DNA of 64,000 bases. Source: a virus. Its lineage: Duplodnaviria; Heunggongvirae; Uroviricota; Caudoviricetes. The notes under the pieces were generated by a model that saw only the letters and a program-made list of their open reading frames with translations, made no database searches and was not told where the DNA came from. Of this stretch, positions 2,615-54,603 are shown piece by piece. How positions within the stretch are numbered: the first letter of the stretch is position 1; every line of letters begins with the position of its first letter. The stretch lies in the IMG/VR virus record IMGVR_UViG_2609459826_000002. One strand, written 5' to 3'. A program made the translations under genes and the position numbers.

Positions 2615-2970
2615 TACTGGTAATCCCCTTCTTCACCGTGGAACTCAAGATCAACCGTGCCTTCTTCGGCATTATGGTTCGCTTCTCCGTGCAGCCAGGC
2701 GGACGACAATACATAGACCTGACCGTTCGCCAGCTCGGCAGTGATGGTCATCTCATCAGACGAGGTGATTTTGCTCACCGGAAAATTCTTCGGCACCTTG
2801 AAGGTCCCTTTGACATAAGGCGCACGGTGAGTTTCCTTGCGGTCCACTGAACCGTCCAGGCCGATGATGTCATCATTGACCGTCCTGTTCATGGGCACCT
2901 CAATGCCGCCGGTCAGCGATAGCTGCTGACCGTCAATTTTGAAATAACAGGTTCCCCCGATACGGGCCAT
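2614..2970 (-). CDS. phage tail tube protein (contractile tail)
   Basis: 118 aa, immediately downstream of sheath gene with TAATG overlap; size and position match myovirus tube proteins. Confidence 0.75.
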   Translation of the reverse strand: MARIGGTCYFKIDGQQLSLTGGIEVPMNRTVNDDIIGLDGSVDRKETHRAPYVKGTFKVPKNFPVSKITSSDEMTITAELANGQVYVLSSAWLHGEANHNAEEGTVDLEFHGEEGDYQ

Positions 2971-27907: not shown

Positions 27908-28257
27908 TGGAGCCATACAGCCTCACACTCGATGAGGCCTGTCATTTTCTCAAGATATCCAGACCGACTGCCATTAACTGGATACGCACAGGGCGTCTTC
28001 AGGCAACACGCAAAGATCCCACTAAGAATAAATCTCCTTACCTCACAACACGACAAGCCTGCATTGCGGCTCTTCAGTCTCCGCTGCATACTGTCCAGGT
28101 GAGCGCGGGTGATGGCATAACAGAGGAAAGAAAATGTCACTCTTCCGCAGAGGTGAAATATGGTACGCCAGTTTCACATTGCCGAACGGTAAAAGATTTA
28201 AACAGTCTCTTGGAACAAAGGACAAAAGGCAGGCGACAGAACTCCATGACAAGCTAA
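27907..28257 (+). CDS. xis: excisionase-like protein
   Basis: ATG 27907; [32 protein letters not shown]; immediately upstream of and overlapping integrase gene; 3' boundary uncertain. Confidence 0.5.
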
Positions 28258-29297
28258 AGGCTGAAGCATGGCGGGTCAGCAAACTTGGTGAAATACCTGA
28301 TATAACGTTCGAGGAAGCGTGTGTCAGGTGGCTTGAAGAGAAAGCACATAAAAAATCACTGGACGATGACAAAAGCCGGATCGGATTCTGGCTTCAACAT
28401 TTCGCAGGAATGCAACTAAGAGACATTACTGAATCAAAAATTTATTCAGCAATGCAGAAAATGACGAACCGGCGTCATGAGGAAAACTGGAAACTCAGGG
28501 CAGAAGCATGCAGAAAAAAAGGGAAACCTGTTCCAGAATACACGCCAAAACCAGCGTCCGTTGCAACGAAGGCTACGCATCTTTCATTTATAAAGGCCCT
28601 ACTAAGAGCCGCAGAGCGTGAATGGAAAATGCTGGATAAGGCACCAATTATTAAAGTGCCTCAACCAAAGAATAAACGGATCCGCTGGCTGGAGCCCCAT
28701 GAAGCACAAAGGCTGATTGATGAATGTCCGGAGCCATTAAAGTCTGTTGTTGAATTTGCACTGGCAACAGGCTTAAGACGCTCGAACATCATCAACCTTG
28801 AATGGCAACAAATAGATATGCAGCGCCGGGTGGCATGGATAAACCCGGAAGAGAGTAAATCAAACCGCGCAATCGGCGTTGCGCTGAATGATACTGCATG
28901 TCGCGTTTTGAAAAAACAAATCGGGAATCATCACCGTTGGGTATTTGTGTACAAGGAAAGCTGCACCAAACCAGACGGAACGAAAGCGCCAACAGTAAGG
29001 AAGATGCGGTATGACGCAAACACAGCCTGGAAAGCGGCGCTGAGACGGGCTGGTATTGATGATTTCAGATTTCACGACTTGAGACACACCTGGGCAAGTT
29101 GGCTGGTTCAAGCCGGAGTCCCGTTGTCAGTGTTACAGGAAATGGGAGGCTGGGAGTCTATCGAAATGGTTCGTCGATATGCTCACCTTGCACCTAATCA
29201 CCTTACCGAACACGCACGGCAAATAGACTCGATCCTGAACCCATCGGTCCCAAATTTGTCCCAGTCAAAAAATAAGGAAGGTACTAATGATGTGTAA
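28134..29297 (+). CDS. int: lambdoid tyrosine integrase (IntD/DLP12-like)
   Basis: 387 aa; near-identity to E. coli DLP12 IntD as recalled; catalytic region HDLRHTWAS...VRRYAHL; stop 15 nt before att core. Confidence 0.9.
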
Positions 29298-29311
29298 CTT
29301 ATTGATTTAAA

Positions 29312-29360
29312 TGGTGCCGATAATAGGAGTCGAACCTACGACCTTCGCATTACGAATGCG
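29312..29360 (-). other. attachment-site core: 49-nt copy of the 3' end of tRNA-Thr(CGU) (thrW-type), not a complete tRNA gene
   Basis: Minus strand reads CGCATTCGTAATGCGAAGGTCGTAGGTTCGACTCCTATTATCGGCACCA (anticodon loop with CGT, T-arm, acceptor 3' strand, CCA); sequence upstream of it does not continue the tRNA. Confidence 0.75.
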
Positions 29361-29542
29361 ACGTTATTATATTTTTACCCCTTTAAAAACCTACTCTTAA
29401 AACAAGTAATTCATTATAAAACATTGTGTTATGAAAAACACCTGTTGATAAAAATTGACAGGTGTTGATGTTTATTCCCCCATTTTACTTACACCAGCAG
29501 TTACATTATGGTGATGTAACATTTCTCATCTGGAGCCCCAAA

Positions 29543-30850
29543 ATGGCACTTCCAAGACAAAAACTCACCTTCGAGCGCATTCGAAAATTTGCTTTATCTG
29601 AAGGAAAAACCCAGGCATTTCTTTGGGATGCGGACGTAACTTCCCTGGCATGTCGGGCAACTCGCGGAACAAAAGCTTTTGTGTTCCAAAGCGTATATGC
29701 GGGAAAAACCCTTCGCATGACCATTGGCAACATTAACGATTGGAGGATTGATGATGCCAGGGCCGAAGCCAGGCGGCTGCAAACATTAATCGATACTGGG
29801 ATAGATCCGCGTATAGCTAAGGCAGAAAAAATTGCTGAAGCGGAATCACAGCAGGATGAATCTCGTAAAACGAAGGTAACCTTCACAAGCGCCTGGGAAG
29901 ATTACCTTGAAGAATTGAGAACCGGAATCAGCGCAAAAACTAAACGCCCATATTCTACTCGATACATTGCCGATCACATTAACTTGTCCAGCCGTGGAGG
30001 GGAAAGTAAAAAAAGAGGCCGGGGCCCAACCTCGGCTGGACCATTGGCTAGCTTACTCGACCTACCGTTATCGGAACTAACACCAGAGAACATTGCCGCA
30101 TGGCTAAGTACAGAGAGACAAAATCGGCCTACCGTCACTGCTCATGCCTACCGGCTGTTGCGTGCATTTATCAAATGGGCTAATTACCAGAAAAAATATC
30201 AGGGAATAATCCATGGCGATATTGCACAAGATCATAACGTGAGAAAAGTGGTTCCAGTATCAGCGAGTAAAGCGGGAGATTGCTTACAAAAAGAACAGTT
30301 AAAAATCTGGTTCAGTGCCGTACGTAGCCTCAATAATCCCATTGCATCGGCCTATCTCCAAGTACTTTTGCTCACCGGTGCACGGCGTGAAGAAATTGCG
30401 TCACTTCGGTGGTCTGACGTAGATTTCAAATGGTCAAGCATGAGGATTAAAGACAAGATCGAAGGCGAACGTATCATCCCTCTCACTCCTTATGTTTCTG
30501 AGCTGTTAAGTGCGCTAGCGCAATTCCCAAATTCTGACGTAAATAAGGAGGGTTGGGTTTTCAGAAGTAACAGCAAAAGTGGCAAAATTATTGAACCGCG
30601 TTCAGGACACAACAGAGCGTTAGCTCGAGCTGAGTTACCACATATCAGCCTTCACGGCTTACGCCGTAGTTTTGGCACTCTTGCTGAATGGGTTGAAGTG
30701 CCAACAGGTATTGTTGCTCAAATTATGGGACACAAACCAAGTGCACTGGCGGAAAAACACTACCGCCGTCGTCCGTTAGATCTGTTGCGCAAATGGCATG
30801 AAAAAATTGAGAGGTGGATCTTACAGCAAGCAAATATTGTAAAAAAATAA
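29543..30850 (+). CDS. int: P4-type tyrosine integrase
   Basis: 435 aa from ATG 29543 (GGAG RBS); catalytic motifs ...HGLRRSFGT...IMGHK...YRR; begins about 180 bp from tRNA fragment. Confidence 0.9.
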   Translation: MALPRQKLTFERIRKFALSEGKTQAFLWDADVTSLACRATRGTKAFVFQSVYAGKTLRMTIGNINDWRIDDARAEARRLQTLIDTGIDPRIAKAEKIAEAESQQDESRKTKVTFTSAWEDYLEELRTGISAKTKRPYSTRYIADHINLSSRGGESKKRGRGPTSAGPLASLLDLPLSELTPENIAAWLSTERQNRPTVTAHAYRLLRAFIKWANYQKKYQGIIHGDIAQDHNVRKVVPVSASKAGDCLQKEQLKIWFSAVRSLNNPIASAYLQVLLLTGARREEIASLRWSDVDFKWSSMRIKDKIEGERIIPLTPYVSELLSALAQFPNSDVNKEGWVFRSNSKSGKIIEPRSGHNRALARAELPHISLHGLRRSFGTLAEWVEVPTGIVAQIMGHKPSALAEKHYRRRPLDLLRKWHEKIERWILQQANIVKK

Positions 30851-33002: not shown

Positions 33003-33623
33003 ATGGAATTATATCATGGTTCACATGGTGAGCATGTGCTCGCCTATAAAAAAAATATTGAACGAGTCGTCAATGATGCACTCAGTGAATTCCCCAGAAC
33101 AATGGCATTACGTGTTGATGTACATTACCCCCCCATTCTAGACAGAGGTGATACTGTTTGCTGTTTTCCTAATCTAGAGCCTGGTGCCATATCCCGTTTC
33201 CGTAATGCATTAAATGCCATGTTGGAGGCCAATGAGAGAGCCAGAGCCGCCAACGGTAAAAGAATATATCCAAACCGAGTTCGTCATGTTTGGGTAAGGG
33301 AGTTTTCCGAAGAGGGAAAATGTCATTTTCATATTGGTCTTTTTTTTAACAAAGATGCTTATTACCATTTAGGTGATTATGAGGCTGAAAGCAATTTAAG
33401 GATGATGATTGTAAGAGCATGGTATAGCGCACTGGGATTGGAACTGGATGATTATCCGGGATTGGTTCACTACCCTGAAAATTGTCGTTATATATTAGAC
33501 GTCAATGATTTTAACTTTGAAGGAGAATACAATAAATTACTGAATCGTCTTGACTACCTGGCTAAACTTGATACAAAAGTATACGGAGATGGCGACCGTA
33601 GCTTCGGCTGCAGTCGCGGGTAA
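33003..33623 (+). CDS. YagK/YfjJ-family (inovirus Gp2-like) protein
   Basis: 206 aa; size and sequence style of YagK/YfjJ proteins of P4-type islands (recalled family). Confidence 0.65.
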   Translation: MELYHGSHGEHVLAYKKNIERVVNDALSEFPRTMALRVDVHYPPILDRGDTVCCFPNLEPGAISRFRNALNAMLEANERARAANGKRIYPNRVRHVWVREFSEEGKCHFHIGLFFNKDAYYHLGDYEAESNLRMMIVRAWYSALGLELDDYPGLVHYPENCRYILDVNDFNFEGEYNKLLNRLDYLAKLDTKVYGDGDRSFGCSRG

Positions 33624-33696
33624 TTTATTTTTTTACAGAAATGGCCTTTCTTATGGATGGAAAGGCCAAACCCATCAGTTAAAGATGGTTGTTTTA

Positions 33697-34191
33697 CTAT
33701 AATCCAACGACCTCATCCCCGATATTAGTCAAAATCATTAATTCTTTAATCTCTCGTTGTGCCAACTGTAATTCAAACTGCTCTTGAATTAACATCCACT
33801 TCGACCAACTTCCACCGACTACATGCGATAATCGGAGTGCCATAGCTTTCGTCAGTGAAACTGAACCGTTCAACAATTCAACTATCTCTTGCTCGCGACA
33901 TCCCATGTAAACCGAAAATTTATTCAGTCCTATATTTGATACCGCTAGTATTTCGGCCAGTTTAATGCCGGGATGATCAGGAAGTAAGGTCATGCCGTAT
34001 TCATCCTGATAAATTCCATAAATAGAACAGCCAGTTTCTCTCAGTTCTCGTAAATTCTTCCCTGCAAACTTCAGCTCGTGTGAAAGCCCGAGAAACTCAC
34101 CAGTAAATTCATATTCTGCTTCAGGCCTATGGTGGCATTTGATCAATGCAAATGCCGCCCCTACTTTCTCAACTGTTACAGTAACCGACAT
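33697..34191 (-). CDS. HigA/VapI-like HTH (XRE-type) protein with about 65-aa N-terminal extension
   Basis: 164 aa, ATG with GGAGGTGG RBS; C-terminal HPGIKLAEIL...LNGSVSLTKAMALRLSHVVGGSWSKWMLIQEQFELQ matches HigA-type antidote pattern; 34 nt downstream of hsdR. Confidence 0.55.
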   Translation of the reverse strand: MSVTVTVEKVGAAFALIKCHHRPEAEYEFTGEFLGLSHELKFAGKNLRELRETGCSIYGIYQDEYGMTLLPDHPGIKLAEILAVSNIGLNKFSVYMGCREQEIVELLNGSVSLTKAMALRLSHVVGGSWSKWMLIQEQFELQLAQREIKELMILTNIGDEVVGL

Positions 34192-34225
34192 TGAACCACC
34201 TCCGTCAAGATAATCGATGAACGTT

Positions 34226-37200
34226 TTAGACTGTCCAGCTGTTCGACACCACTTCTGCCTGCTTCAAAATCAGTTCCACGGCGCCCGGCGTTTTGTCCGG
34301 CGGATACTTATACTTACGCAGCGTCTGGCGCACCAGAATACGCAATCGGGCACGCACGCTTTCACGCACCTGCCAGTCCACGGTGGTGGACTGCCGCAAT
34401 TTCAATGTCACTTCGATGGCCAGCTTTCTCAGCGTATCATCGCCCAGTTCACGCACTGCACTTTCATTTTCAGCCAGCGCATCATAGAAGGCGATTTCAT
34501 CCGGGGTCAGCCCCAGCGCATCATCACGCGCCATCGCCTCCTGGAACGCTTTCGCCATCTGGATCAGCTCTTCAATCACCTGCGCGGTCTCAATGGCGCG
34601 GTTATTGTATTTGAGCAGCACCGCTTTCAGTCGGTCGGAGTATTTCTTCTGCTGCACCACGTTATTGCCCGAACGGGCATGAATGCCGTCATTGAGCAGT
34701 TTTTCCAGCAGTTCCACTGCCAGATTACGCTGCGGCATTTCCCGCACTTCTTCCAAAAACTCATCGGACAGCAAACCTATGTTCGGTTTATCCAGCCCGG
34801 CGAGTGCGAAGACATCCTCAACCCCGGTCGCGACAACCGCGTTATCGAGGATCTTGCTCAGCAGAGAGTTTTTTTCTGACTGGCTAAACTTTGCCTTCGG
34901 ATCGAGCTTGATAAGCCCCACCCTGACCGCCGAAAGAAACGCGAACTCCTCCTGTAAGGGTTTCGCCTCATCCAGCGTATTACACAGTGACCAGGCTTTA
35001 CTCATCGCCAGCGAAACATCGAGGTAGCGTTTTTTACCGTCATCCAGCCCCAGAATATAGTTCACCGCATCGCGTAAGAACGCTAACGGGTCGCGAGAAA
35101 AACCTGCGTAACTGAAGCCGGGTTTTCCTGCCGAGGGCGCAAACATCCCATGAATAATGTCGATTTTTTCCAGCAGAATGGCAAAGGCTTCCCGGGCATC
35201 GACCGTGGACTGCCCTTTGCCTTTTGAGTCGGTATAGGTTTTCAGCGCCTGCTTCAGCTCGTTGGCAATGCCGATGTAATCGACCACCAGCCCGCCGGGC
35301 TTATCGCGGAACACGCGGTTAACACGCGCAATGGCCTGCATCAGGTTGTGGCCACGCATCGGCTTGTCGATATACATGGTGTGGCAGCACGGCGCGTCAA
35401 ACCCAGTCAGCCACATATCCCGCACAATCACCAGTTTCAGCGGGTCATTTAGATCTTTAAAGCGGGCTTCCAGGCGTTTTTTGGTCTGTTTGTTGTAGAT
35501 ATGCGATTGCAGATGATCTTTATCTGACGCTGATCCGGTCATGATGACTTTGATCGCCCCTTGTTCAACGTCTTCACTGTGCCATTCAGGGCGTATCGCC
35601 ACGATGGCATCGTACAGTTTCACGCAGATCTCGCGGCTCATGGCGACAACCATCGCCTTGCCGTTCATGGCAGTGTTACGTGTTTCAAAATGCTGAACCA
35701 GATCGGCGGCGACCTGCTGAATACGTGGCTCTGAACCGACCAGCTTTTCCAGACGGCTCCAGTCACCTTTGGTTTTCTCCTGCTGGCCGGTCTCTTCATC
35801 TTCCACCAGCTCATCCACCTGATCGGAGAGCGTTTCCAGCTCCTCATGGTTCAGGTCGAGCTTTGCCAAGCGGGATTCGTAGTAAATTGGCACCGTCGCG
35901 CCGTCATCCACCGCATCCTGAATATCGTAGATCGAGACATAATCACCGAACACGGCACGGGTATCTTTATCTTCAGACGCAATCGGTGTACCGGTAAAGC
36001 CCATAAACGACGCATTCGGTAGCGCATCGCGCATATGCTTGGCGTAGCCGTATTTATAGGCCCCGGTTTGCCGGTCCAGCGTGGCGCTCAGGCCATACTG
36101 GCTACGGTGCGCTTCATCGGAAATCACCACGATGTTGCTGCGTGAGTTAAGTGCCGGATGGCTCTGCTCGTTGTCCAGAGGCGCAAACTTTTGCACAGTG
36201 GTAAAGATAATGCCGCCGGATTCACGGGCATTGAGCAGTTCGCGCAATTCGTCACGGTCATTAGCCTGTAACGGCGTTTGCTTGAGTAAATCCTGCGCCT
36301 GGCAAAACGTGGCATAGAGCTGCCCGTCGAGATCGTTACGATCCGTCACCACCACGATGGTCGGGTTGTTCATCTCCGCCTGTTGCAGCAGCTTTCCGGC
36401 GTAACAGCACATGGAGATACTCTTGCCAGAGCCCTGGGTATGCCACACCACGCCTGCTTTTTTACTGCCCGGCTGGATGTTACTCCGTAATGGCAGATAT
36501 TTGCCGGTAGACGCCACAATCGTCGCCGCAACCGCTTCACGCACCGCGTGGAACTGATGGTATGCGGCAATCTTTTTGATAAGCCGTTTGCCATCGTTTT
36601 CAAACAGCACAAAGAAACGAATGTAATCGAGCAGCAGTTCGCGATTAAAGAAGCCCTGCACTACCGTTTTAAGCTGCCAGTCAAACTGCGGCTTGTCGTC
36701 TTCGTTAGCCACGGTTTTCCACGGCAGGAAACGCTCTTCATCGGCGGTCAGCGAGCCGATACGCGCATTCTGCCCGTCGCTTACCACCAGCGCTTCATTG
36801 CAGATAAACAGGTCGCTCAGTTCGTTTTTATAGGTCTGTAGCTGGTTAAACGCCGCCCAGATATCGGCACTGGCATCAATCGGGCTTTTCAGCTCAAGCA
36901 CCGCCACCGGCAGGCCGTTGATATAGCCAATCACATCCGGGCGACGTACCTGTTTTATGCCCTGAATCGCCACCTGATTGACCACCATAAAGCGGTTATT
37001 GGCGGTGCGGTTAAAATCCATCAGCAGCGCTTTATCGTGGATAACCTTGTCTTCCTGCTTGTACTCAACGGGCACACCGTCGAGCAGCAGATGATGGAAG
37101 GCTTTGTTGCTGACGACAAGATCCGGGCTTTGGGCATGGGCGATACGCAGTATCACCTCTTCCAGCACGGCAACAGGGAGATGGGGATTGATGGTTTGCA

Positions 37201-37357
37201 GTTGCTCCAGCATCACCGGGCGAAGAAACACATCATGAAAGGAAGCACGCAACGGGTTGTCGCCATCCGGCGCAATATCTGGCCCGTGCAGCACTTCCCA
37301 GCCCTGTACAGCAAACCATTGCAGGCACTGCTGTTCTAAATCGTCTTCGCTTAGCAT
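34226..37357 (-). CDS. hsdR: type I restriction enzyme R subunit (HsdR)
   Basis: 1043 aa; helicase motifs ([10 protein letters not shown] Walker [15 protein letters not shown] box); ATG with GAGGAAG RBS; shares 1 nt with upstream gene stop. Confidence 0.9.
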
Positions 37358-38544
37358 CAGGCTTCCTCTGTCTCAGGATCGTCCGCTTCTTCCGGTACGT
37401 TGGATATCTCTTTCAACGCCATATTCAGTGGCGCAATAAAGGGATCGAGCGCTTTTTCAAACGCCGTCAGGTTAACCAGCAGCCAGTCGATCATCGCTGG
37501 CCAGTTGCTCTCATCAAGGTTGGTAGCAGGTGTGGCAAAGGAGATTCGGCAGGATTTTTTGCCTGGCAGCGGTTCCCACTTCAGCGCATGACCAAATGTC
37601 TCTTCAATCGCCGCTTTACGCTCATACAGCCAGTTATAGGCAAAGGTGTTGCTCTCTGCCGAGGATTTGGCAATCCAGAACTCAACGCGAGTTTCTTTCT
37701 TACTAAAAATCATATTGTAAGAAAGTGCGCTGATACCCGAACCGGCACTAAGCCAGTGGTCTGTTGACGGGCTGATATTGTTGTACAGCGTGCAGGAACT
37801 GGCTTTCAGACGCTCCAGCATTTTGGTCCAGAAAGCTTTGCGCAGCAGATGGCGGGTTTTCAGCTCGCCGCTGGTGGACTGCTCTTCGGCTTCTTTCTGC
37901 GCCATGCCGATCATGAAGGATTCGGCTTCCGGCGTCGGGATCACCTGGCGAATATCAACGAAAACATCATCGTTGAATTTGTATGGTTTCACCTTAAAGC
38001 ACTGCACACGCAGGCCAAACTGCATCAACCATAGCGCGGTATTGGTGACCTCTTTGCGGAAGCTCGCCGCCACCATCATCACCCTCTGGGTGCGGCTCTG
38101 GTTAATTTGCACTTCATCCAGGCTTTCACACTCCAGAAACTCCGCCATCACCTCTGCCGCCGGACGGGTCTCTTCCGGTTCGTATTTATCGAGATAGAGT
38201 TGGAAGATGTCCAGAATCTGTTCTTTACGCAGATTGGCGCAGTAACCGGCGTATTTCAGCGCCTGCCACACTACGTCACGCCCGGAGTCATCGAGCTTAT
38301 TTTCGATGATCACCAAATTGCGCTGTTTATCGATAGCCAGCAGGTCGAGGCGCTCTTTGGTGTCGTCAAAACCGGCGAACTCTTTCTGGATAATCAGCAG
38401 TTCATCATCGTTATCGCGGGTCAACGCCTGGGGATTTTTTGCCAGCCACTCCTGCAGGTGATAGCGCTCGGTATAACCGAGGCTGCTAAAAGACACCTCC
38501 TGCAACGAGTGCAGGCTATTGGTTGGCATATCGACTTTATACAT
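37357..38544 (-). CDS. uncharacterised protein encoded inside the type I R-M operon; PD-(D/E)xK/NucS-like motif
   Basis: 395 aa; overlaps hsdS stop by 8 nt and hsdR start by 1 nt; motif [23 protein letters not shown] resembles D...E.K nuclease core; no Walker A. Confidence 0.7.
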
Positions 38545-39955
38545 TTTCCGCCTCGCTTACCGCCTGCTCGGCTTCCGGCAGGGTGATTTCACCGGAGAGG
38601 AGTTTGGGGAGAAGGGTGTCTCGGATATTTTTTAATAACACCGTTTGTTTTTTACGCTGAACTACCCCGTTGATTATGGTTTTACAATGATCTTCAAATT
38701 TTTTTACTAGTTTAAAATCAGGTGCTACTAACTCAATATTTTTCAGATGAGATGATGGCCTGGCAATAGAAGGAACACCTACTTGCGAGGCGTTTGATAA
38801 TAATAGATGTTGTCCTGTCCGCGATCTAAAGAAATATAGCAAATAATAAGGAGATATTAGTTTTTTGTCTGCACGCAAAAAGAACTGTCGCTGAGATATA
38901 ACATAACGTTCATATTCTGAAAATTCAGGAATGATTGAAACCTGCCCTATACTCCCTGCATGCGTAAAAATGATATCTTCGCTAAATACATTTGAGCTTT
39001 TCAATTTATCGGCATGTTCGAGTGTAATAAAATTATTCTCACCATCATTAAGAATAGATTCTTTTAAATGCTGCCCACTAATTATAGGAATACCTTCATC
39101 AACAAAGGTGGATACCTTAATATTTGAACCAAATGGCCCCATTCCAATTTTACTAGTCAATTCTTCAGTTTTAACAACCGCCCATCCCTTTGGAATATCC
39201 CTCCCCTCGCTCTCCTGCATCGCCGATGGAAACAGCTCTGCTGTGGCTTTTAATTGAGCATATTGCTCAGGGTGTTCACGCTCAAAAACCACCAACGCAT
39301 CAGAATCTTTCCCGGAAATCGCTGTCATAGCGGCAAGCATCGCGTCTTCCTGCGAACCGCCCGCTTCCAGTGCTGTGATTTTGGCTTTTACCGGTTCAAA
39401 ATCGACAAACCAGCTTTTGAACAGGGCTTGCGCCATTTGTTCGAGAGTATGGTTGATTTGATGATTTAATAAAATTTTATCGTCGAATTTCTTTAAAACA
39501 TCACCTGCAAATTTCCTTAATCTTTTGTCAGGGAAATCATATTCATAATCGGCTAATGATTGCCATGCAACGCGTTGACGTCCAGAAGTTCCTTCCATTC
39601 TGGATCGAGCAAATGAACGGAATTCCCCAAGGCGTGAGAGATAATAAATATAATCACTATCGTACTCAGGCTCTTTTGCAGCTAAAACGATAAATTCCGT
39701 TGAACCAAAAGCAACCTCACCATCCGATAAACCGGAAACAAGCGATGTTTTACCATTTTCAAGACAAGGTGTTATACGAGCAAACAAGGTGTCTTTATTT
39801 GCAAATTTTGAACCGCCACCGGTGAAGATTTTTTCATCAACTCTATTTATATCTCTACCATTTTCGGGAAGTGCGGCCATTTCAACAAAGGCTGCACTTT
39901 CTCCTTTTTTTAGTGGGCGCTTTGGATTAAAAATAACCAAATCAGATAATTTCAT
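38537..39955 (-). CDS. hsdS: type I R-M specificity subunit (HsdS)
   Basis: 472 aa with two target-recognition domains around central conserved repeat; overlaps hsdM stop; second TRD region markedly AT-rich. Confidence 0.85.
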   Translation of the reverse strand: MKLSDLVIFNPKRPLKKGESAAFVEMAALPENGRDINRVDEKIFTGGGSKFANKDTLFARITPCLENGKTSLVSGLSDGEVAFGSTEFIVLAAKEPEYDSDYIYYLSRLGEFRSFARSRMEGTSGRQRVAWQSLADYEYDFPDKRLRKFAGDVLKKFDDKILLNHQINHTLEQMAQALFKSWFVDFEPVKAKITALEAGGSQEDAMLAAMTAISGKDSDALVVFEREHPEQYAQLKATAELFPSAMQESEGRDIPKGWAVVKTEELTSKIGMGPFGSNIKVSTFVDEGIPIISGQHLKESILNDGENNFITLEHADKLKSSNVFSEDIIFTHAGSIGQVSIIPEFSEYERYVISQRQFFLRADKKLISPYYLLYFFRSRTGQHLLLSNASQVGVPSIARPSSHLKNIELVAPDFKLVKKFEDHCKTIINGVVQRKKQTVLLKNIRDTLLPKLLSGEITLPEAEQAVSEAENV

Positions 39956-41654
39956 AACCCAGCCCCCCCAGATTCGCCTTAATCTGTGCTTCCAGGTTCG
40001 CGCTCTCTTCCAACTGATCTTTCAGTTGCGCCGTCAGTCGTGCCATCTTCTCGGCAAAGGGCTCATCATCTTCGTCCTGCTCGGCAGCACCGACATAGCG
40101 ACCTGGGGTCAGGACAAAGTCATTTTTCTTTATATCTTCCAGCGTTGCGGCGAAGCAGAATCCCGCTTCATCTTCATAGTCTTTATCCGTCTGCCATGAA
40201 TGGAAGGTGTCGGCAATTCTGGCGATATCTTCACGGCTAAAATCACGCAACACGCGATCTTTCATATAACCAATCTGGCGCGCGTCTATAAACAGTACTT
40301 CACCTTTACGGTGTGCTTTGCCGTTGCCACCAGATTTATCTTTGGTCAGAAACCAGATGCAGGCCGGGATTTGGGTGTTGGTAAACAGTTGCCCTGGCAG
40401 CGCCACCATACATTCCACCAGATCCGCTTCAATCAGGTTGCGGCGGATTTCGCCTTCATTGTTGGTGTTGGAACTCATTGAGCCGTTCGCCAGCAGCAGA
40501 GCCATCGAACCTTTTGGCGCGAGGTGGTGGATCATGTGCTGCATCCACGCAAAGTTGGCGTTGCCCTGCGGCGGCGTACCATATTTCCAGCGCACGTCGT
40601 TTTCCAGCTTCGCGTTCCACCACTCCTTCATGTTGAACGGCGGGGTTGCCATCACGAAGTCGGCACGCAGATCCGGGTGCTGGTCGTCCAGCAGGGTATC
40701 GGCGTTTTTGCTGCCGAAGTTAAAGTCGATACCCCGGATCGCCATATTCATCGCCGCCAGCTTCCAGGTGGTCGGGTTGGACTCTTGGCCGTAAACGGAG
40801 ATATTGCGCTTCTGCTCGGCGGCGTTGTACTGCTTCTCGCCCGCGTGCTCTTCGATAAAACGGTCGCTGGAAACAAAGAACCCGCCGGAACCCATCGCCG
40901 GGTCATACACGCGCCCGTTATACGGTTGCAGCATTTCAACAATCAGGGTGACGATACTTTTTGGCGTGTAATACTGGCCGCCCTGCTTACCTTCCGCCAG
41001 CGCGAACTGACCGAGGAAATATTCGTACACGTGACCGAGAATATCTTTGCTCTTTAAGTTGAGCTTCTCGCCGTTATATTCCGGGTTGCTGAAGTTGGCG
41101 TCAGAGAAAGTATTAATCAGCCCGGTCAACACTTCGTTGCCCAATTGATACTGGCTGATACGGTTCAGAATACCTTTCAGCTTCGGGTTGGTTTTTTCGA
41201 TTTCATCGAGCGCGTTATCCACCAGCCAGGACACAGAGCGCAGCGTCACATCCTTGCCGGTGGTTTCATCCACCCACAGCACGGTGCCGGTCGGCAACAT
41301 GGCTTTGTTTTTCAGCGTGTCCCAGCGCGCGGCTTTCGGCACCCAGAAGATGTTCTTTTCGGTGTAGTAATCTTCCACCTCCAGTTCATCCACAATCGCC
41401 TGTGCGTACTCTTCATCAGAGTCGTAACCGTCGCGCGACATGGCATAGATGTTGTCCGGGTTGCCGACATCGCGGAACAAGGTGATTAGCTCCTGCTGAC
41501 GCGCCTCGAAGGCATCGGACACATACTTGAGGAAGATAAGCCCCAGCACCACGTGCTTGTAGTTGGCGGCATCCATGTTGGCGCGTAGCTTGTCGGCGGC
41601 TTTCCAGAATTTGTTATCCAGCTCGTTCAGGAACTGTTGTTCGGCGTTGTTCAT
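39942..41654 (-). CDS. hsdM: type I R-M DNA methyltransferase (HsdM)
   Basis: 570 aa from ATG 41654 (GAGGA RBS); N6-adenine MTase motifs (DPAMGSGGFF; ATPPFN). Confidence 0.9.
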   Translation of the reverse strand: MNNAEQQFLNELDNKFWKAADKLRANMDAANYKHVVLGLIFLKYVSDAFEARQQELITLFRDVGNPDNIYAMSRDGYDSDEEYAQAIVDELEVEDYYTEKNIFWVPKAARWDTLKNKAMLPTGTVLWVDETTGKDVTLRSVSWLVDNALDEIEKTNPKLKGILNRISQYQLGNEVLTGLINTFSDANFSNPEYNGEKLNLKSKDILGHVYEYFLGQFALAEGKQGGQYYTPKSIVTLIVEMLQPYNGRVYDPAMGSGGFFVSSDRFIEEHAGEKQYNAAEQKRNISVYGQESNPTTWKLAAMNMAIRGIDFNFGSKNADTLLDDQHPDLRADFVMATPPFNMKEWWNAKLENDVRWKYGTPPQGNANFAWMQHMIHHLAPKGSMALLLANGSMSSNTNNEGEIRRNLIEADLVECMVALPGQLFTNTQIPACIWFLTKDKSGGNGKAHRKGEVLFIDARQIGYMKDRVLRDFSREDIARIADTFHSWQTDKDYEDEAGFCFAATLEDIKKNDFVLTPGRYVGAAEQDEDDEPFAEKMARLTAQLKDQLEESANLEAQIKANLGGLGYEII

Positions 41655-41994
41655 GAAAATCCTCAGGGGCGATCGCAGCGATAGTGCAAACATGCCTATC
41701 TTAAATTGGGTTTTGGAATGCTAATCGCAAAATGATACCCGGAATGACTAGGTTCATAAACGAGATAGCGCAAAGAAGTGGAAGATGGGCTATGGCTAAG
41801 TTGACATTAAGTTCCGGGCCTCAAGCAGACGTCTCAACGTTGTCTCGCGAATATGCCAAATTATTCCGCAGCAGATGCTCAGCCCTACGGATTGACAGTC
41901 TATATTACTCTCCAAACAGTCTTCATTTACCTTCGGTTTTACGATACATGTCTGGTCGGTTGATCTGCCAGACAAAGTCTGGTCGGTTCAACGG

Positions 41995-42102: not shown

Positions 42103-42378
42103 GTGGCTTCTGTTTCTATCAGCTGTCCCTCCTGCTCAGCTACTGACGGGGTGGTGCGTAACGGTAAAAGTACTGCCGGACATCAGCGCTATCTCTGCTC
42201 TCACTGCCGTAAAACATGGCAGCTACAGTTCACTTACACCGCTTCTCAACCCGGTACGCATCAGAAAATCATTGATATGGCCATGAATGGCGTTGGATGC
42301 CGGGCAACCGCCCGCATTATGGGCGTTGGCCTCAACACGATTTTACGTCACTTAAAAAACTCAGGCCGCAGTCGGTAA
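42103..42378 (+). CDS. insA: IS1 InsA
   Basis: 91 aa [23 protein letters not shown]... zinc-finger/HTH. Confidence 0.85.
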
Positions 42379-42800
42379 CCTCGCGCATACAGCCGGGCAG
42401 CGATGTGATTGTCTGCGCTGAAATGGACGAACAGTGGGGCTACGTCGGTGCTAAATCACGTCAGCGCTGGCTGTTTTACGCGTATGACAGGATACGGAGG
42501 ACGGTTGTGGCGCACGTCTTCGGTGAACGCACTCTGGCCACACTGGAGCGTCTTCTGAGCCTGCTGTCGGCCTTTGAGGTCGTGGTATGGATGACGGATG
42601 GCTGGCCGCTGTATGAATCCCGCCTGAAGGGAAAGCTGCACGTAATCAGCAAGCGATACACGCAGCGCATTGAGCGACATAACCTGAATCTGAGACAACA
42701 TCTGGCAAGGCTGGGACGGAAGTCACTGTCGTTCTCAAAATCGGTGGAGCTGCATGACAAAGTCATCGGGCATTATCTGAACATAAAACACTATCAGTAA
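42297..42800 (+). CDS. insB: IS1 InsB (expressed as InsAB' by frameshift)
   Basis: ORF in -1 frame overlapping insA 3' end. Confidence 0.8.
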
Positions 42801-51592: not shown

Positions 51593-51919
51593 ATGACTAA
51601 AAATACACGTTTTTCCCCCGAGGTCCGTCAACGGGCAGTTCGTATGGTTCTGGAAAGTCAGGGCGAATATGACTCACAATGGGCGGCAATTTGTTCCATT
51701 GCCCCAAAGATTGGCTGTACACCAGAGACTCTGCGTGTGTGGGTTCGTCAGCATGAGCGGGATACCGGGAGTGGTGATGGTGGACTCACCACCGCTGAAC
51801 GTCAGCGTCTGAAAGAGCTGGAACGTGAAAATCGTGAACTGCGCCGCAGTAACGATATCCTTCGCCAGGCTTCCGCTTATTTTGCGAAGGCGGAGTTCGA
51901 CCGCCTCTGGAAAAAATAA
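51593..51919 (+). CDS. IS3-family transposase OrfA (IS629-like)
   Basis: 108 aa HTH/leucine-zipper OrfA; A6 frameshift window at orfA/orfB junction. Confidence 0.8.
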
Positions 51920-52333
51920 TGCCGCTGCTGGATAAGCTGCGTGAGCAGTACGGGGTCGGACCGGTATGCAGTGAACTGCATATTGCCCCGTCAACGTATT
52001 ACCACTGTCAGCAACAGCGACATCATCCTGATAAACGCAGTGCCCGTGCTCAGCGCGATGACTGGCTGAAGAGAGAGATACAGCGCGTATACGATGAAAA
52101 TCATCAGGTGTACGGTGTGCGTAAAGTCTGGCGCCAGTTGTTACGCGAAGGTATCAGGGTGGCCAGATGTACAGTGGCGCGCCTCATGGCGGTTATGGGA
52201 CTTGCCGGTGTTCTCCGGGGTAAAAAGGTCCGTACTACCGTCAGCCGGAAAGCCGTTTCCGCAGGCGACCGCGTAAACCGTCAGTTCGTGGCAGAACGTC
52301 CTGACCAGCTGTGGGTGGCTGATTTTACTTACG
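51919..52333 (+). pseudogene. IS3-family transposase OrfB, 5' segment (interrupted)
   Basis: Homology to OrfB up to ...QLWVADFTY then intron 5' end GTGTG. Confidence 0.6.
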
Positions 52334-54603
52334 GTGTGCCCGGAGTTCAGGGCGGGCATGGATGCTTAAATGAACCGCGAGTCTGTCTGGAATATTGAAC
52401 CGGTAACTCACGATGAGAAACCCAACAATCCCACCGGGTGTGACGGTGGAGAACCTGAGCGGCAGTGACCTGCGGCATGCCCGCAGGGTGATGTAACCCG
52501 CTGACAACGGGGATTGAGGCGAGATCACTAAGCCGAGATGATCCTCAAGGTTAAGTACTGAAAGGCTGAAGAACATGAACCCGTTAATCCGCCTCTGTGG
52601 GTTGAAAACGTCACCACGGCCTACGTGATCTGACAGGCCGTGCAGGAGGAACTGGCAGTGATACGTAAGCACTGCCGGTCGAAGGTGTTTTGACATGTAT
52701 GCGAAACACCGGGGCAGCAGCGTCTATCACGCTTGCGTTGCTGACTTCTGCCAACTTGCGGCAAGCAAGGATAAAGAGTGCGACGGGCAGCCTCCTCAGT
52801 ATGCCTGAGTCCAGGCAGGTAAACCGGGGAAGGTCAGCGACGGATGTTAAGGGGGCATGGCTCCGATGACGCGCTGGCTGGCGGAGCTTCCGTAGTAGTC
52901 CGCGATGGGGAAAGTCCATTACATGGCGAAGGGAAGCAGTTTGAATGTGTTTGCGACGTGAATTAACTGACCTAACGAGGTGAAGACCTTTGATAATCAG
53001 CGAAATGCAACGCAAGCTTGCCACATGGGCAGTCACCGATCCGTCCCTACGGATTCAACGGCTGCTGCGTCTGATAACACAACCAGAATGGCTGGCTGAA
53101 GCGGCGCGGATCACGCTTTCATCAAAGGGGGCCCATACCCCCGGCGTTGATGGCGTGAACAAAACAATGCTACAGGCCAGACTGGCTGTTGAGCTGCAAA
53201 TCCTCAGGGATGAATTACTCTCAGGCCACTACCAGCCCTTGCCCGCCAGACGGGTTTACATCCCTAAAAGCAACGGCAAACTGCGACCACTGGGTATCCC
53301 CGCGTTGCGGGATCGTATTGTTCAGCGGGCCATGCTGATGGCGATGGAGCCGATATGGGAGAGTGATTTTCATACGCTCTCATATGGCTTCCGGCCTGAG
53401 CGCAGTGTCCACCACGCTATCCGCACGGTGAAATTACAGCTCACAGACTGTGGTGAAACCCGGGGACGCTGGGTGATTGAAGGCGACCTGTCCAGTTACT
53501 TCGACACCGTACATCATCGACTGCTGATGAAGGCTGTACGCCGCAGGATCAGTGACGCACGTTTCATGACTCTGCTGTGGAAAACCATCAAGGCGGGACA
53601 TATCGATGTCGGTCTCTTTCGGGCGGCCAGTGAAGGTGTGCCACAGGGCGGTGTTATATCGCCGCTATTATCGAACATCATGCTGAATGAGTTCGATCAA
53701 TACCTGCATGAGCGCTACCTGAGCGGGAAAGCCAGAAAAGATCGGTGGTACTGGAATAACAGTATCCAACGGGGCCGAAGTACGGCGGTCAGAGAAAACT
53801 GGCAGTGGAAACCCGCGGTGGCGTACTGCCGCTATGCCGATGATTTTGTCCTCATCGTCAAAGGCACCAAAGCACAGGCGGAAGCCATCAGGGAGGAGTG
53901 TCGGGGTGTGCTCGAAGGCAGTCTGAAACTCAGGCTGAACATGGATAAGACTAAAATCACCCATGTTAATGACGGCTTTATCTTTCTGGGGCACAGGATC
54001 ATTCGCAAACGCAGTCGTTATGGCGAGATGCGAGTGGTCTCAACGATCCCGCAGGAGAAAGCCAGAAACTTCGCCGCATCGCTGACAGCACTGTTATCAG
54101 GCAACTACAGTGAAAGCAAAGTCGATATGGCTGAACAACTCAACCGAAAACTGAAAGGCTGGGCCATGTTCTATCAGTTCGTTGATTTTAAGGCCAAAGT
54201 CTTCAGTTATATCGACCGTGTCGTGTTCTGGAAGCTGGCTCACTGGCTGGCCCGCAAATACCGTACAGGTATCGCTTCCCTGATGAGGTGGTGGTGTAAA
54301 TCACCGAAACCGGGTCAGAGCAAAACGTGGGTTTTATTTGGTAAAACCAATCACGGCAAGCTCAGCGGCGAAATACTGTACCGGTTGGTGGGGCAAGGCA
54401 AGAAGCTGTTCCGCTGGCGGCTACCCGAAGGTAATCCCTATCTGAGGACGGAGACCAGAAACACGTATACATCGCGCTTTACAGAAGTGGCAATGGCGTT
54501 CGCCAGCATTTAAATGGAGAGCCGGATGCGCTGAAAGGTGCACGTCCGGTTCGGGGAGGAGAGGCAGGGAAATAGTCCGACTACGCCCTGCCTCTTACTC
54601 TAC
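52334..54603 (+). mobile_element. bacterial group II intron (about 2.27 kb)
   Basis: 5' GTGTG; domain V GAGCCGGATGCGCTGAAAGGTGCACGTCCGGTTC at 54519-54552; ends ...CTAC; encodes RT/maturase; flanking exon frame is restored across the junction. Confidence 0.8.
52990..54513 (+). CDS. group II intron-encoded reverse transcriptase/maturase
   Basis: 507 aa; RT motifs incl. YADD (AYCRYADDFVLIV); maturase X region; no HNH endonuclease domain evident. Confidence 0.9.
   Translation: MIISEMQRKLATWAVTDPSLRIQRLLRLITQPEWLAEAARITLSSKGAHTPGVDGVNKTMLQARLAVELQILRDELLSGHYQPLPARRVYIPKSNGKLRPLGIPALRDRIVQRAMLMAMEPIWESDFHTLSYGFRPERSVHHAIRTVKLQLTDCGETRGRWVIEGDLSSYFDTVHHRLLMKAVRRRISDARFMTLLWKTIKAGHIDVGLFRAASEGVPQGGVISPLLSNIMLNEFDQYLHERYLSGKARKDRWYWNNSIQRGRSTAVRENWQWKPAVAYCRYADDFVLIVKGTKAQAEAIREECRGVLEGSLKLRLNMDKTKITHVNDGFIFLGHRIIRKRSRYGEMRVVSTIPQEKARNFAASLTALLSGNYSESKVDMAEQLNRKLKGWAMFYQFVDFKAKVFSYIDRVVFWKLAHWLARKYRTGIASLMRWWCKSPKPGQSKTWVLFGKTNHGKLSGEILYRLVGQGKKLFRWRLPEGNPYLRTETRNTYTSRFTEVAMAFASI

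What the first reader, a model, noticed from the sequence alone, without database searches (positions are those of the whole stretch)
33697..34191. HigA-type HTH antidote-like gene with an N-terminal extension and no obvious cognate toxin, immediately downstream of hsdR
Seen: the C-terminal ~100 aa match the HigA/VapI XRE pattern, but the ORF has a well-supported ATG (GGAGGTGG RBS) about 65 codons upstream, and no RelE/HigB-like ORF is found between it and hsdR (only 34 nt). Inference: either a fused or orphan antitoxin, or a regulator coupled to the R-M operon.
Basis: partly seen in the sequence, partly recalled or inferred. Interest (0 to 1): 0.4.

Follow-up and report, generated by a model that had tools for sequence, protein, structure and literature searches.

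The report
Toxin-less HigA-like regulator after hsdR
A small DNA-binding gene that looks like the antidote half of a toxin-antitoxin pair, but has no toxin and carries a 66-residue front end found nowhere else, always rides at the tail of one lineage of type I restriction-modification operon in enterobacteria; it is real and maintained but dispensable, and is probably an ordinary accessory regulator.

Summary
A 164-codon ORF lies on the minus strand at 33697-34191, 34 nt after hsdR, with GGAGGTGG 7 nt before its ATG. Residues 69-150 are a HigA/VapI-type HTH (TIGR02607 E 9e-12, 44.7 bits, just under the 47.7 cutoff; PDB HigA/VapI chains to 4e-8). Residues 1-66 match no family, and an exhaustive phmmer search of 1.84 billion representatives found only copies of itself. 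No toxin family appears in the N-terminus, the other frames or nearby small ORFs.

Three alleles (90-100% aa) keep the frame open; dN/dS is 0.27 for the N-terminal part and 0.11-0.15 for the C-terminal part. In about 22 loci the gene sits directly after one HsdR lineage (95-98% aa), whatever the hsdS allele, DUF4268 insert or yfjJ backbone. Cassettes 77-86% identical in DNA carry other genes there. At least two strains carry IS insertions in the gene while hsdM, hsdS, DUF4268 and hsdR are all annotated intact.

Verdict: an orphan HigA-family regulator with a lineage-specific N-terminal extension, an accessory last cistron of this R-M cassette, not a working toxin-antitoxin pair. Its target and the role of the N-terminus are unknown, and structure prediction failed. 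Modest interest.

The parts
33697..34191 (-). Complete ORF, 164 aa plus TAG stop; identical to RefSeq WP_006809979.1
   Evidence: The frame is intact in three alleles of 90-100% aa identity.
33994..34191 (-). N-terminal extension, residues 1-66: a sequence orphan of unknown fold
   Evidence: No Pfam, NCBIfam, PHROG or PADLOC hit. phmmer against 1.84e9 representatives found only self fragments plus one low-complexity artefact. No paralogous DNA in 5426 E. coli genomes. dN/dS 0.26-0.27. AF2 pLDDT 38-39, with contradictory secondary structure between the two runs.
33742..33987 (-). HigA/VapI-type XRE helix-turn-helix domain, residues 69-150
   Evidence: TIGR02607 E 8.9e-12, 44.7 bits. PDB 3cec, 2icp, 3trb, 4mcx. 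phrog_1381. dN/dS 0.11-0.15.
33991..33993 (-). Met67 codon, the position where canonical HigA proteins begin; a weak AGGA lies 10 nt upstream
   Evidence: Alignments; canonical HigA lengths; sequence context.
34196..34203 (-). Shine-Dalgarno GGAGGTGG, 7 nt before the ATG counted from the GGAGG core
   Evidence: It lies in DNA homologous to the left arm of the post-hsdR hairpin of sister cassettes.
34192..34225 (-). 34-nt hsdR-to-ORF spacer; 33 of 34 nt conserved between alleles whose flanking hsdR third codon positions differ by 35-39%
34210..34237 (-). Promoter-like site (TGGACA, 16 nt, GATTAT) spanning the hsdR stop codon; consensus match only
   Evidence: 9 of 12 matches; 4 sites found against 1.8 expected in shuffles.
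33945..33948 (.). CTAG inside codons 82-83, where homology breaks next to two IS families (ISKpn26 of the IS5 family, ISEc33 of the IS630 family)
33642..33668 (.). Perfect 9-bp hairpin between the convergent 164-aa ORF and the yfjJ-like gene
34226..37357 (-). hsdR, type I restriction subunit R, immediately upstream on the same strand
37357..38544 (-). DUF4268 / PADLOC PDC-S11 gene inserted between hsdS and hsdR; present in some cassettes and absent in others
38537..39955 (-). hsdS
39942..41693 (-). hsdM

Best explanation
The ORF encodes a stand-alone (orphan) HigA-family DNA-binding protein. A canonical HigA-type HTH domain (residues 67-164) is preceded by a lineage-specific 66-residue extension with no relatives.

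**Shown.** It is not half of a working toxin-antitoxin pair, because no toxin gene or toxin-like domain is present. It is not needed to keep cells with this R-M system alive. It is tightly linked to one HsdR lineage. It evolves under purifying selection.

**Inferred.**
- It is translated from the ATG at 34191, using the strong GGAGG site.
- It is expressed as the last cistron of the hsdM-hsdS-(DUF4268)-hsdR unit and/or from a promoter-like site that overlaps the hsdR stop codon.
- It binds DNA through the HTH, as HigA proteins do, and acts as a transcription regulator. Its targets are unknown; its own spacer/promoter or cassette and island genes are the obvious candidates.
- The N-terminal part provides an added interaction or oligomerisation surface.
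For: **Domain identity.** HigA-type HTH at residues 69-150.

**No toxin.**
- The N-terminal part has no hit in Pfam, NCBIfam, PHROGs or PADLOC.
- Only self hits in 1.84e9 proteins.
- Smith-Waterman against a real HigB is no better than shuffles (p = 0.32).
- The other reading frames and nearby small ORFs give no toxin family.

**Long form is real.**
- PGAP calls the 164-aa form.
- GGAGGTGG and the ATG are conserved in three alleles, the ORF is open in all, and N-terminal dN/dS is 0.26-0.27 (binomial P about 0.02-0.07).
- Whole-gene dN/dS is 0.18 (P = 4e-7).
- The N- and C-terminal halves share the same low G+C (42.9% and 40.7%, against 53.9% for hsdR). The gene therefore arrived as one unit.

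**Linkage.**
- In every one of about 22 loci that include upstream DNA, the gene directly follows this HsdR lineage (95-98% aa).
- This holds with hsdS alleles only 40-57% identical, with DUF4268 present (99% or 65% alleles) or absent, and with yfjJ alleles of 99% or about 46% identity.
- 23 E. coli records have an hsdR 3' end at >=90% identity. 25 carry the 5' part of the gene, 2 of them having lost hsdR. By these counts every hsdR of this lineage has it.

**Conservation.** The spacer is 33 of 34 nt identical, and the gene is less diverged than hsdR third positions or the downstream intergenic DNA.

**Dispensability.** Strains PSJ-22 (ISKpn26) and VREC0761 (ISEc33) have the HTH part cut off, yet hsdM, hsdS, DUF4268 and hsdR are all annotated intact.
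Against: - No functional data exist. No operator-like palindrome was found in the spacer, and no motif is shared with the hsdM upstream region.
- The TIGR02607 score is just below the curated cutoff, and Pfam HTH_3 does not hit at all. The HTH is divergent.
- Structure prediction failed, so it is not shown that the N-terminal part is a folded domain.
- The SD and ATG lie in DNA homologous to a post-hsdR hairpin of sister cassettes. The long reading frame could be a recombination-junction product, with Met67 still used as a start.
- Selection on the N-terminal part rests on only 11 substitutions per allele pair.
- The tight linkage could partly reflect how young and narrow the family is.
Confidence: 0.6

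Rival explanations
1. Dedicated controller of the type I R-M cassette, analogous to a C-protein. The HTH protein sets the timing or level of hsdR or hsdMS expression, for example on entry into a new host, and the N-terminal part senses HsdR or the state of the cassette.
For: - Invariable position directly after this HsdR lineage, across different island backbones, hsdS alleles and DUF4268 states.
- Same strand, 34-nt gap, no terminator in between.
- The block comprising the hsdR 3' end, spacer and gene is 99-100% identical across E. coli, Enterobacter and Citrobacter, while the rest of hsdR is a mosaic of 80-95%.
- The spacer is almost invariant.
Against: - IS-disrupted alleles coexist with hsdM, hsdS, DUF4268 and hsdR all annotated intact, in at least two independent events.
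- Sister cassettes 77-86% identical in DNA lack the gene and carry unrelated genes in the same slot.
- The gene lies downstream of R, not upstream as C genes do.
- No C-box-like repeats, and no shared motif with the hsdM upstream region.
- As general knowledge, type I systems are controlled post-translationally rather than by C proteins.
Confidence: 0.15
2. The true product is a canonical 98-aa HigA starting at Met67. The 66 upstream codons are a fortuitous open frame created when the gene was joined to the hsdR 3' end, or they give a second, minor isoform.
For: - Met67 aligns with the N-termini of canonical HigA proteins.
- AGGA lies 10 nt upstream of Met67.
- The N-terminal part is a complete orphan.
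- Homology with the E24377A-type cassette runs through the spacer and stops at the ATG. GGAGGTGG corresponds to the G-rich arm of that cassette's post-hsdR hairpin.
- A 66-codon open frame has about a 4% chance of arising at random.
Against: - The frame is open in three alleles despite 11 substitutions per pair, and nonsynonymous changes are under-represented (dN/dS 0.27, P about 0.02-0.07).
- The GGAGG spacing is optimal and conserved.
- The N-terminal DNA is less diverged (5.6%) than the downstream intergenic DNA (24-29%) or hsdR third positions (35-39%).
- PGAP selects the long form.
Confidence: 0.12
3. Fused, single-chain toxin-antitoxin. The N-terminal 66 aa are a small novel toxin or effector held in check by the HigA-like domain.
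For: - The extension occupies the position where HigB is encoded in higBA operons.
- The domain is unknown.
- The gene lies in a defence island.
Against: - No similarity to any toxin family.
- 66 aa is shorter than RelE/HigB folds.
- Fragments encoding only residues 1-82 or 1-62, without the HTH, persist in several E. coli chromosomes and at least 14 listed plasmids, 13 Klebsiella and 1 Raoultella. An active toxin would not be tolerated this way.
Confidence: 0.05
4. A decaying remnant of a higBA module whose toxin was lost, with no current function.
For: - Narrow distribution: about 0.4% of complete E. coli genomes, plus Enterobacter and Citrobacter.
- Frequent IS hits and truncated copies.
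Against: - Whole-gene dN/dS is 0.18 (P = 4e-7), with no frameshifts or stops in three alleles.
- The spacer and SD are conserved.
- No HigB trace in any frame.
Confidence: 0.08

Closest known systems
HigA / VapI antitoxins (TIGR02607, COG3093; PDB 3cec, 2icp, 3trb, 4mcx)
   Same: Residues 69-150 carry the family's HTH. The HPG...NG..S.T...A.RLS...G.S...W...Q pattern aligns over about 80 residues at roughly 30-40% identity.
   Different: - 164 aa instead of 94-104.
- An extra 66-aa N-terminal part.
- No HigB/RelE-type toxin gene upstream or nearby.
- The score falls 3 bits below the NCBIfam cutoff.
- It sits behind hsdR, not in a two-gene addiction module.
Orphan HigA-like regulators of E. coli such as YddM and YbaQ (PDB 2eby)
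   Same: HigA-type HTH proteins without an adjacent toxin. YbaQ is a weak hit (E 0.11). That these two proteins are solitary is from general knowledge.
   Different: Those are short, single-domain core-genome proteins. This one has an orphan N-terminal extension and belongs to a mobile R-M cassette.
Two-domain antitoxins with an N-terminal toxin-binding domain and a C-terminal XRE HTH (HicB, MqsA)
   Same: The overall layout is the same: a small N-terminal domain followed by an XRE-type HTH, 130-165 aa in total.
   Different: - No sequence or profile similarity to HicB: hhalign probability 0.1%, BLASTP nothing.
- No MqsA-type CxxC zinc motifs in the sequence.
- No hicA or mqsR gene nearby.
Controller (C) proteins of restriction-modification systems
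   Same: A small XRE-family HTH protein encoded inside an R-M gene cluster.
   Different: C genes precede or overlap the R gene of type II systems and have C-box operators. This gene follows hsdR of a type I system, no operator repeats were found, and it is dispensable with R-M intact.

Membership tests
HigA family antitoxin (TIGR02607) | HigA-type XRE helix-turn-helix domain scoring above the curated cutoff | tested here: inconclusive
   44.7 bits against a cutoff of 47.7, E 8.9e-12. Clear hits to solved HigA/VapI chains. Pfam HTH_3 is not hit.
HigA family antitoxin (TIGR02607) | Adjacent cognate HigB/RelE-ParE-type toxin gene | tested here: not met
   - Only 34 nt to hsdR upstream, and a convergent yfjJ-like gene downstream.
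- No toxin family in the N-terminal part, the other frames or nearby ORFs.
- The same arrangement holds in about 22 related loci.
HigA family antitoxin (TIGR02607) | Single-domain protein of about 95-105 aa that starts just before the HPG motif | tested here: not met
   164 aa, with the HPG motif at residues 73-75. The canonical relatives examined are 97-102 aa.
HigA family antitoxin (TIGR02607) | Neutralises a toxin and represses its own operon | not testable with these tools
   Needs co-expression and toxicity assays, and EMSA.
HicB-type antitoxin | N-terminal HicB domain (PF15919 / PF15970) | tested here: not met
   - No Pfam hit.
- hhalign against 20 HicB sequences gives probability 0.1%.
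- Smith-Waterman score is below the shuffle mean.
HicB-type antitoxin | Adjacent hicA toxin gene | tested here: not met
   No such ORF or family hit nearby.
R-M controller (C) protein | Gene upstream of or overlapping the restriction gene, with C-box inverted repeats in its promoter | tested here: not met
   The gene lies downstream of hsdR. No inverted repeat with half-sites of 5 nt or more was found in the 109 nt upstream.
R-M controller (C) protein | Required for controlled expression or establishment of the R-M system | tested here: inconclusive
   Natural IS knock-outs retain an intact annotated R-M cassette, which argues against necessity. Expression itself was not measured.
RelE/ParE/HigB toxin superfamily (for the N-terminal 66 aa) | Detectable RelE-fold toxin domain | tested here: not met
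   - No Pfam or NCBIfam hit at E<=10 or E<=1.
- Pairwise score against a plasmid HigB is no better than shuffles.
- The fold is not testable because the AF2 models are unusable.

The most novel reading that the evidence does not exclude
The 66-residue N-terminus is an evolutionarily young, junction-born extension. A HigA gene was recombined onto the 3' end of a type I R-M cassette exactly at what is now its start codon. The G-rich arm of the former hsdR terminator hairpin became the Shine-Dalgarno site. The previously untranslated upstream DNA was then captured as a new protein segment, which is now under selection. It may give the HTH protein a new partner, for example HsdR, and so make it a type I R-M-specific controller or guard.
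Probability: 0.12. Interest if true: 0.5.

Novelty: new variant of a known kind. Interest (0 to 1): 0.25.

Why it matters
If the reading is right, this is one more case of an antitoxin-type HTH protein working alone as an accessory regulator inside a mobile defence cassette. It also offers a clean example of an orphan protein segment grafted onto a well-known domain.

It matters mostly for annotation: the gene should not be called an antitoxin or counted as a TA system. It also provides a small, testable model with two uses. One is whether type I R-M cassettes carry their own regulators. The other is how new N-terminal extensions arise at recombination junctions. It does not bear on any major open question.

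Tried and rejected
1. **HicB-like N-terminal domain.** The first AF2 model suggested a beta-beta-beta-alpha-beta topology. I rejected the idea for three reasons:
   - hhalign against 20 HicB sequences gave probability 0.1%.
   - BLASTP and Smith-Waterman showed nothing.
   - The second AF2 run, also at pLDDT 39, made the same region helical. Neither model can be used, so I ran no fold search.
2. **HigB remnant, in frame or in another frame.** No similarity to a real plasmid HigB (p = 0.32). No Pfam hit for the other two frames.
3. **TrkA_C (E 0.014) and KH_1 (E 0.22) hits for residues 41-72**. These are partial, below cutoff, and cover less than half of the TrkA_C profile. I treat them as chance.
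4. **Two other weak hits.** A hit to the Legionella DotG repeats in the PDB and an 808-aa low-complexity protein are repeat artefacts.
5. **The 165-aa gene in the same slot in strain SA186.** It is an unrelated membrane protein.
6. **A 'short form' in metagenome contig L033** (residues 67-164). It is an IS-truncated copy.
7. **mRNA structure around the start.** Not different from shuffles (z = 0.37).
8. **Operator search.** No palindromes in the spacer, and only one shared 9-mer with the hsdM upstream region.
9. **Rfam.** Nothing near the gene.
10. **Literature.** Searches for the accession, DUF4268 with type I R-M, and orphan HigA found nothing specific. One preprint that mentions PDC-S11 could not be opened.
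11. **Word-seeded homologue searches.** These returned only the family itself. The nearest non-family HigA relatives were reached only through tblastn of plasmids and phages.

Full report
**1. What is there**

- The minus strand carries an ATG-initiated ORF of 164 codons at 33697-34191, with a TAG stop at 33697-33699.
- It lies 34 nt downstream of a 1043-aa hsdR (34226-37357).
- hsdR is the last recognised gene of a same-strand, tightly packed array: hsdM (39942-41693), hsdS (38537-39955), a DUF4268 gene (37357-38544), then hsdR.
- GGAGGTGG lies at 34196-34203. Counted from the GGAGG core, it is 7 nt before the ATG.
- Downstream, 73 nt away, a yfjJ-type (YagK/YfjJ) gene converges on it (33003-33623).
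- RefSeq/PGAP annotates an identical 164-aa protein, WP_006809979.1, as 'helix-turn-helix transcriptional regulator', in the same arrangement in E. coli PD7.
- All descriptive elements of the finding are therefore confirmed.

**2. The two halves of the protein**

*C-terminal part*
- Residues 71-146 match NCBIfam TIGR02607 (antidote_HigA) at E 8.9e-12. The score is 44.7 bits, 3 bits under the curated cutoff.
- Residues 69-150 match solved HigA/VapI structures 3cec, 2icp, 3trb and 4mcx (E 3.8e-8 to 1.5e-4). They also match a PHROG of 'plasmid antitoxin with HTH domain'.
- Pfam gives nothing for this part, even at E<=10. It is a genuine but divergent HigA-type HTH.
- Met67 lines up with the N-termini of canonical HigA proteins. 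The two plasmid examples I examined are 97 and 102 aa.

*N-terminal part (residues 1-66)*
- It has no match in Pfam, NCBIfam, PHROGs or PADLOC.
- It has no meaningful match in the PDB.
- An exhaustive phmmer search of residues 1-72 against 1.84 billion representative proteins returned only fragments of the same protein, plus one low-complexity artefact.
- Sensitive blastn of the coding DNA against 5426 complete E. coli genomes found only the gene itself.
- Two AlphaFold runs gave pLDDT 38-39 and contradictory secondary structure for this part. No structural inference is possible.

**3. Is the long reading frame real?**

- Three alleles exist: the window type; L005 (90% aa); and L031 (92% aa).
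- All three keep the ATG, the GGAGGTGG and an uninterrupted frame.
- Between the window allele and the other two, dN/dS is 0.26-0.27 for codons 1-66. That rests on 5.5 synonymous and 5.5 nonsynonymous changes. The binomial P is 0.02-0.07 against neutrality.
- dN/dS is 0.11-0.15 for codons 67-164, and 0.18 for the whole gene (P = 4e-7).
- The N-terminal DNA differs by 5.6% between alleles. This is less than the downstream intergenic region (24-29%) or hsdR third codon positions (35-39%). The 34-nt spacer differs at a single position.
- The two halves of the gene share the same low G+C (42.9% and 40.7%), against 53.9% for hsdR. The gene came in as a unit from a different source than hsdR.
- I conclude that the long form is most likely translated and maintained. 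The statistical support for selection on the N-terminal part alone is modest.

**4. A caveat on the start**

- The E24377A-type sister cassette is about 80% identical to the window over the last 1.2 kb of hsdR.
- Its homology with the window continues through the stop codon and the spacer (ATTATCTTGA...GAG.GG.TCAAT) and ends at the ATG.
- In that cassette the same stretch forms the left arm and loop of a -18 kcal/mol hairpin that follows hsdR.
- The SD and start codon therefore sit on the 'constant' side of a recombination junction, and the coding sequence sits on the 'variable' side.
- This fits an N-terminal extension born at a junction, which would explain its orphan status. The direction of change is not established.
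- A weak AGGA lies 10 nt before Met67, so a second, canonical-length product cannot be excluded.

**5. No toxin**

- The 34-nt gap upstream and the convergent gene downstream leave no room for a partner.
- No RelE/ParE/HigB/HicA or other toxin family is detected in the N-terminal part, in the other two frames of its DNA, or in the small ORFs nearby.
- A Smith-Waterman comparison with a bona fide plasmid HigB scores no better than shuffled sequence (p = 0.32).
- I also tested whether the N-terminal part is a HicB-type toxin-binding domain. hhalign against 20 HicB sequences gave probability 0.1%, and BLASTP gave nothing.

**6. Distribution and context**

*Where it occurs*
- The family is narrow. 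It is intact in about 19 of 5426 complete E. coli genomes.
- It is also present in Enterobacter and Citrobacter genomes, one Citrobacter plasmid, and gut metagenome and IMG/VR contigs.

*What it is linked to*
- In every one of about 22 loci with upstream sequence, the gene directly follows the same HsdR lineage (95-98% aa).
- The rest of the neighbourhood varies: hsdS is 40-57% identical; DUF4268 is present as a 99% or a 65% allele, or absent; the yfjJ gene downstream is 99% or about 46% identical.
- 23 E. coli records have an hsdR 3' end at >=90% identity. 25 carry the 5' part of the gene, 2 of them having lost hsdR. By these counts every hsdR of this lineage has it.
- Across species, the block made of the hsdR 3' end, the spacer and the gene is 99-100% identical. 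The rest of hsdR is a mosaic of 80-95%.

*What replaces it in sister cassettes*
- Cassettes 77-86% identical in DNA have unrelated genes in the same slot:
  - a UvrD-type helicase plus a hypothetical gene (E24377A, 2018-11-3CC);
  - a 580-aa hypothetical gene plus a 5'-nucleotidase (EC291);
  - a 165-aa membrane protein (SA186).
- The position after hsdR is thus a variable cargo slot, and this gene is the cargo of one cassette lineage.

**7. Natural knock-outs**

- The homology breaks next to ISKpn26 (IS5 family) and ISEc33 (IS630 family) fall at 33945 and 33947, on the CTAG at 33945-33948, inside codons 82-83.
- In PSJ-22 and VREC0761 the HTH part is cut off, while hsdM, hsdS, DUF4268 and hsdR remain annotated as intact proteins.
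- In B379, IS903B lies beside the gene, homology ends 10 nt short of the ATG, and the R-M genes are gone. In ECONIH5, ISEc33 lies at the same CTAG and the R-M genes are also gone.
- At least 14 listed plasmids (13 Klebsiella, 1 Raoultella) carry residues 1-62. In the one I examined, the fragment is joined to an hsdR remnant.
- The protein is therefore neither an essential antidote nor an essential brake on this R-M system.
- An N-terminal-only product is tolerated, which argues against a cis toxin.

**8. Interpretation**

- The best-supported reading is an orphan HigA-family DNA-binding protein with a lineage-specific N-terminal extension.
- It is carried as the accessory last cistron of one type I R-M cassette inside CP4-57-like integrative islands.
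- The following are shown:
  - the domain identity;
  - the absence of a toxin;
  - the linkage to this HsdR lineage;
  - purifying selection;
  - dispensability.
- Three things are inferred from family knowledge, not shown: DNA binding and transcriptional regulation; co-transcription with hsdR or use of the promoter-like site at 34210-34237; and a protein-interaction role for the N-terminal part.
- I found no operator-like repeats and no literature on this protein.

**9. Comparison with known families and novelty**

- The protein works like, and is related to, HigA/VapI proteins. It fails two defining features of HigA antitoxins, the cognate toxin and the single-domain size, and narrowly misses the curated score.
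- It should therefore be filed as a HigA-like HTH regulator, not as an antitoxin.
- It shares only its general layout with HicB and MqsA, and only its genomic neighbourhood with R-M C-proteins.
- I rate it a new variant of a known kind, of modest interest.
- The most novel reading not excluded is a junction-born N-terminal segment that turns a HigA domain into a type I R-M-specific controller.

Noticed in passing
window 37357-38544 (-): A 395-aa gene sits between hsdS and hsdR with overlapping start and stop codons, the position PrrC occupies in EcoprrI. It has a weak PD-(D/E)XK hit N-terminally and DUF4268 C-terminally, and matches the PADLOC candidate defence family PDC-S11 at E 2.5e-174. 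In otherwise equivalent cassettes it is present as a 99% allele, a 65% allele, or absent (L014, L021, L025, L026, L038).
   Followed up: partly
L006, L007, L008, L009 (E. coli EC291, 2018-11-3CC, E24377A, SA186), just downstream of hsdR: The slot after hsdR is a variable cargo site in related hsdM-hsdS-DUF4268-hsdR cassettes. It holds a UvrD-type helicase plus a hypothetical gene, or a 580-aa hypothetical gene plus a 5'-nucleotidase, or a 165-aa membrane protein. These may be uncharacterised R-M-associated defence genes.
   Followed up: partly
window 34192-34225; L008 about 3434-3493: The 34-nt spacer, including the SD of the 164-aa ORF, is homologous to the left arm and loop of a -18 kcal/mol hairpin that follows hsdR in E24377A-type cassettes. 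Homology ends at the ATG, so the recombination junction coincides with the start codon.
   Followed up: partly
window 33945-33948: Homology breaks at a CTAG inside the gene next to two unrelated IS families in different strains: ISKpn26 (PSJ-22, and contigs L033 and L035) and ISEc33 (VREC0761, ECONIH5). From general knowledge, both IS families prefer CTAG-type targets.
   Followed up: partly
L015 (K. pneumoniae pKP46-5) 2638-4207, and about 13 similar listed plasmids: An hsdR 3' remnant (about 93% identical) plus codons 1-62 of the gene is fossilised next to two DUF262 (GmrSD-like) genes in the plasmid examined. The same aa 1-62 fragment occurs at 100% identity on at least 14 listed plasmids (13 Klebsiella, 1 Raoultella).
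   Followed up: partly
window 33700-37357 compared with L001, L003, L004, L014: hsdR is a recombination mosaic, 80-100% identical in 150-nt windows. Its last 0.3-1.2 kb, the spacer and the HTH gene are 99-100% identical across E. coli, Enterobacter and Citrobacter. G+C drops from 54% to 42% exactly at the boundary between hsdR and the ORF.
   Followed up: partly
window 33994-34191 compared with 33700-33993: Synonymous divergence between alleles is lower in the N-terminal part (dS 0.14) than in the HTH part (dS 0.37), and much lower than at hsdR third positions. The cause could be an intragenic recombination breakpoint or an extra constraint on this DNA. It is unexplained.
   Followed up: no
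window 42103-42800: IS1 (insA/insB-like ORFs) lies about 400 nt upstream of hsdM. In other strains and plasmids a 200-aa HTH-domain gene (WP_001581470.1), with a B3/B4-domain gene beyond it and in some loci a GNAT gene, lies upstream of hsdM. I did not look for these genes in the window. A LacI-type regulator and a large glycosidase-like ORF follow the IS1.
   Followed up: no
window 28134-30850 and 29323-29379: Two tyrosine integrase genes lie in tandem (387 aa and 462 aa). A tRNA-like fragment lies between them (Rfam tRNA, 29.7 bits, model positions 9-63), suggesting tandem islands at one attachment site. ARAGORN finds no complete tRNA or tmRNA in the window.
   Followed up: no
window 51874-51990 and 52990-54603: An ALIL pseudoknot is present (an IS3-family frameshift signal, 120.9 bits). 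There is also a group II intron 3' domain (RF00029, 64.9 bits) directly after a 507-aa ORF, probably the intron's reverse transcriptase.
   Followed up: no
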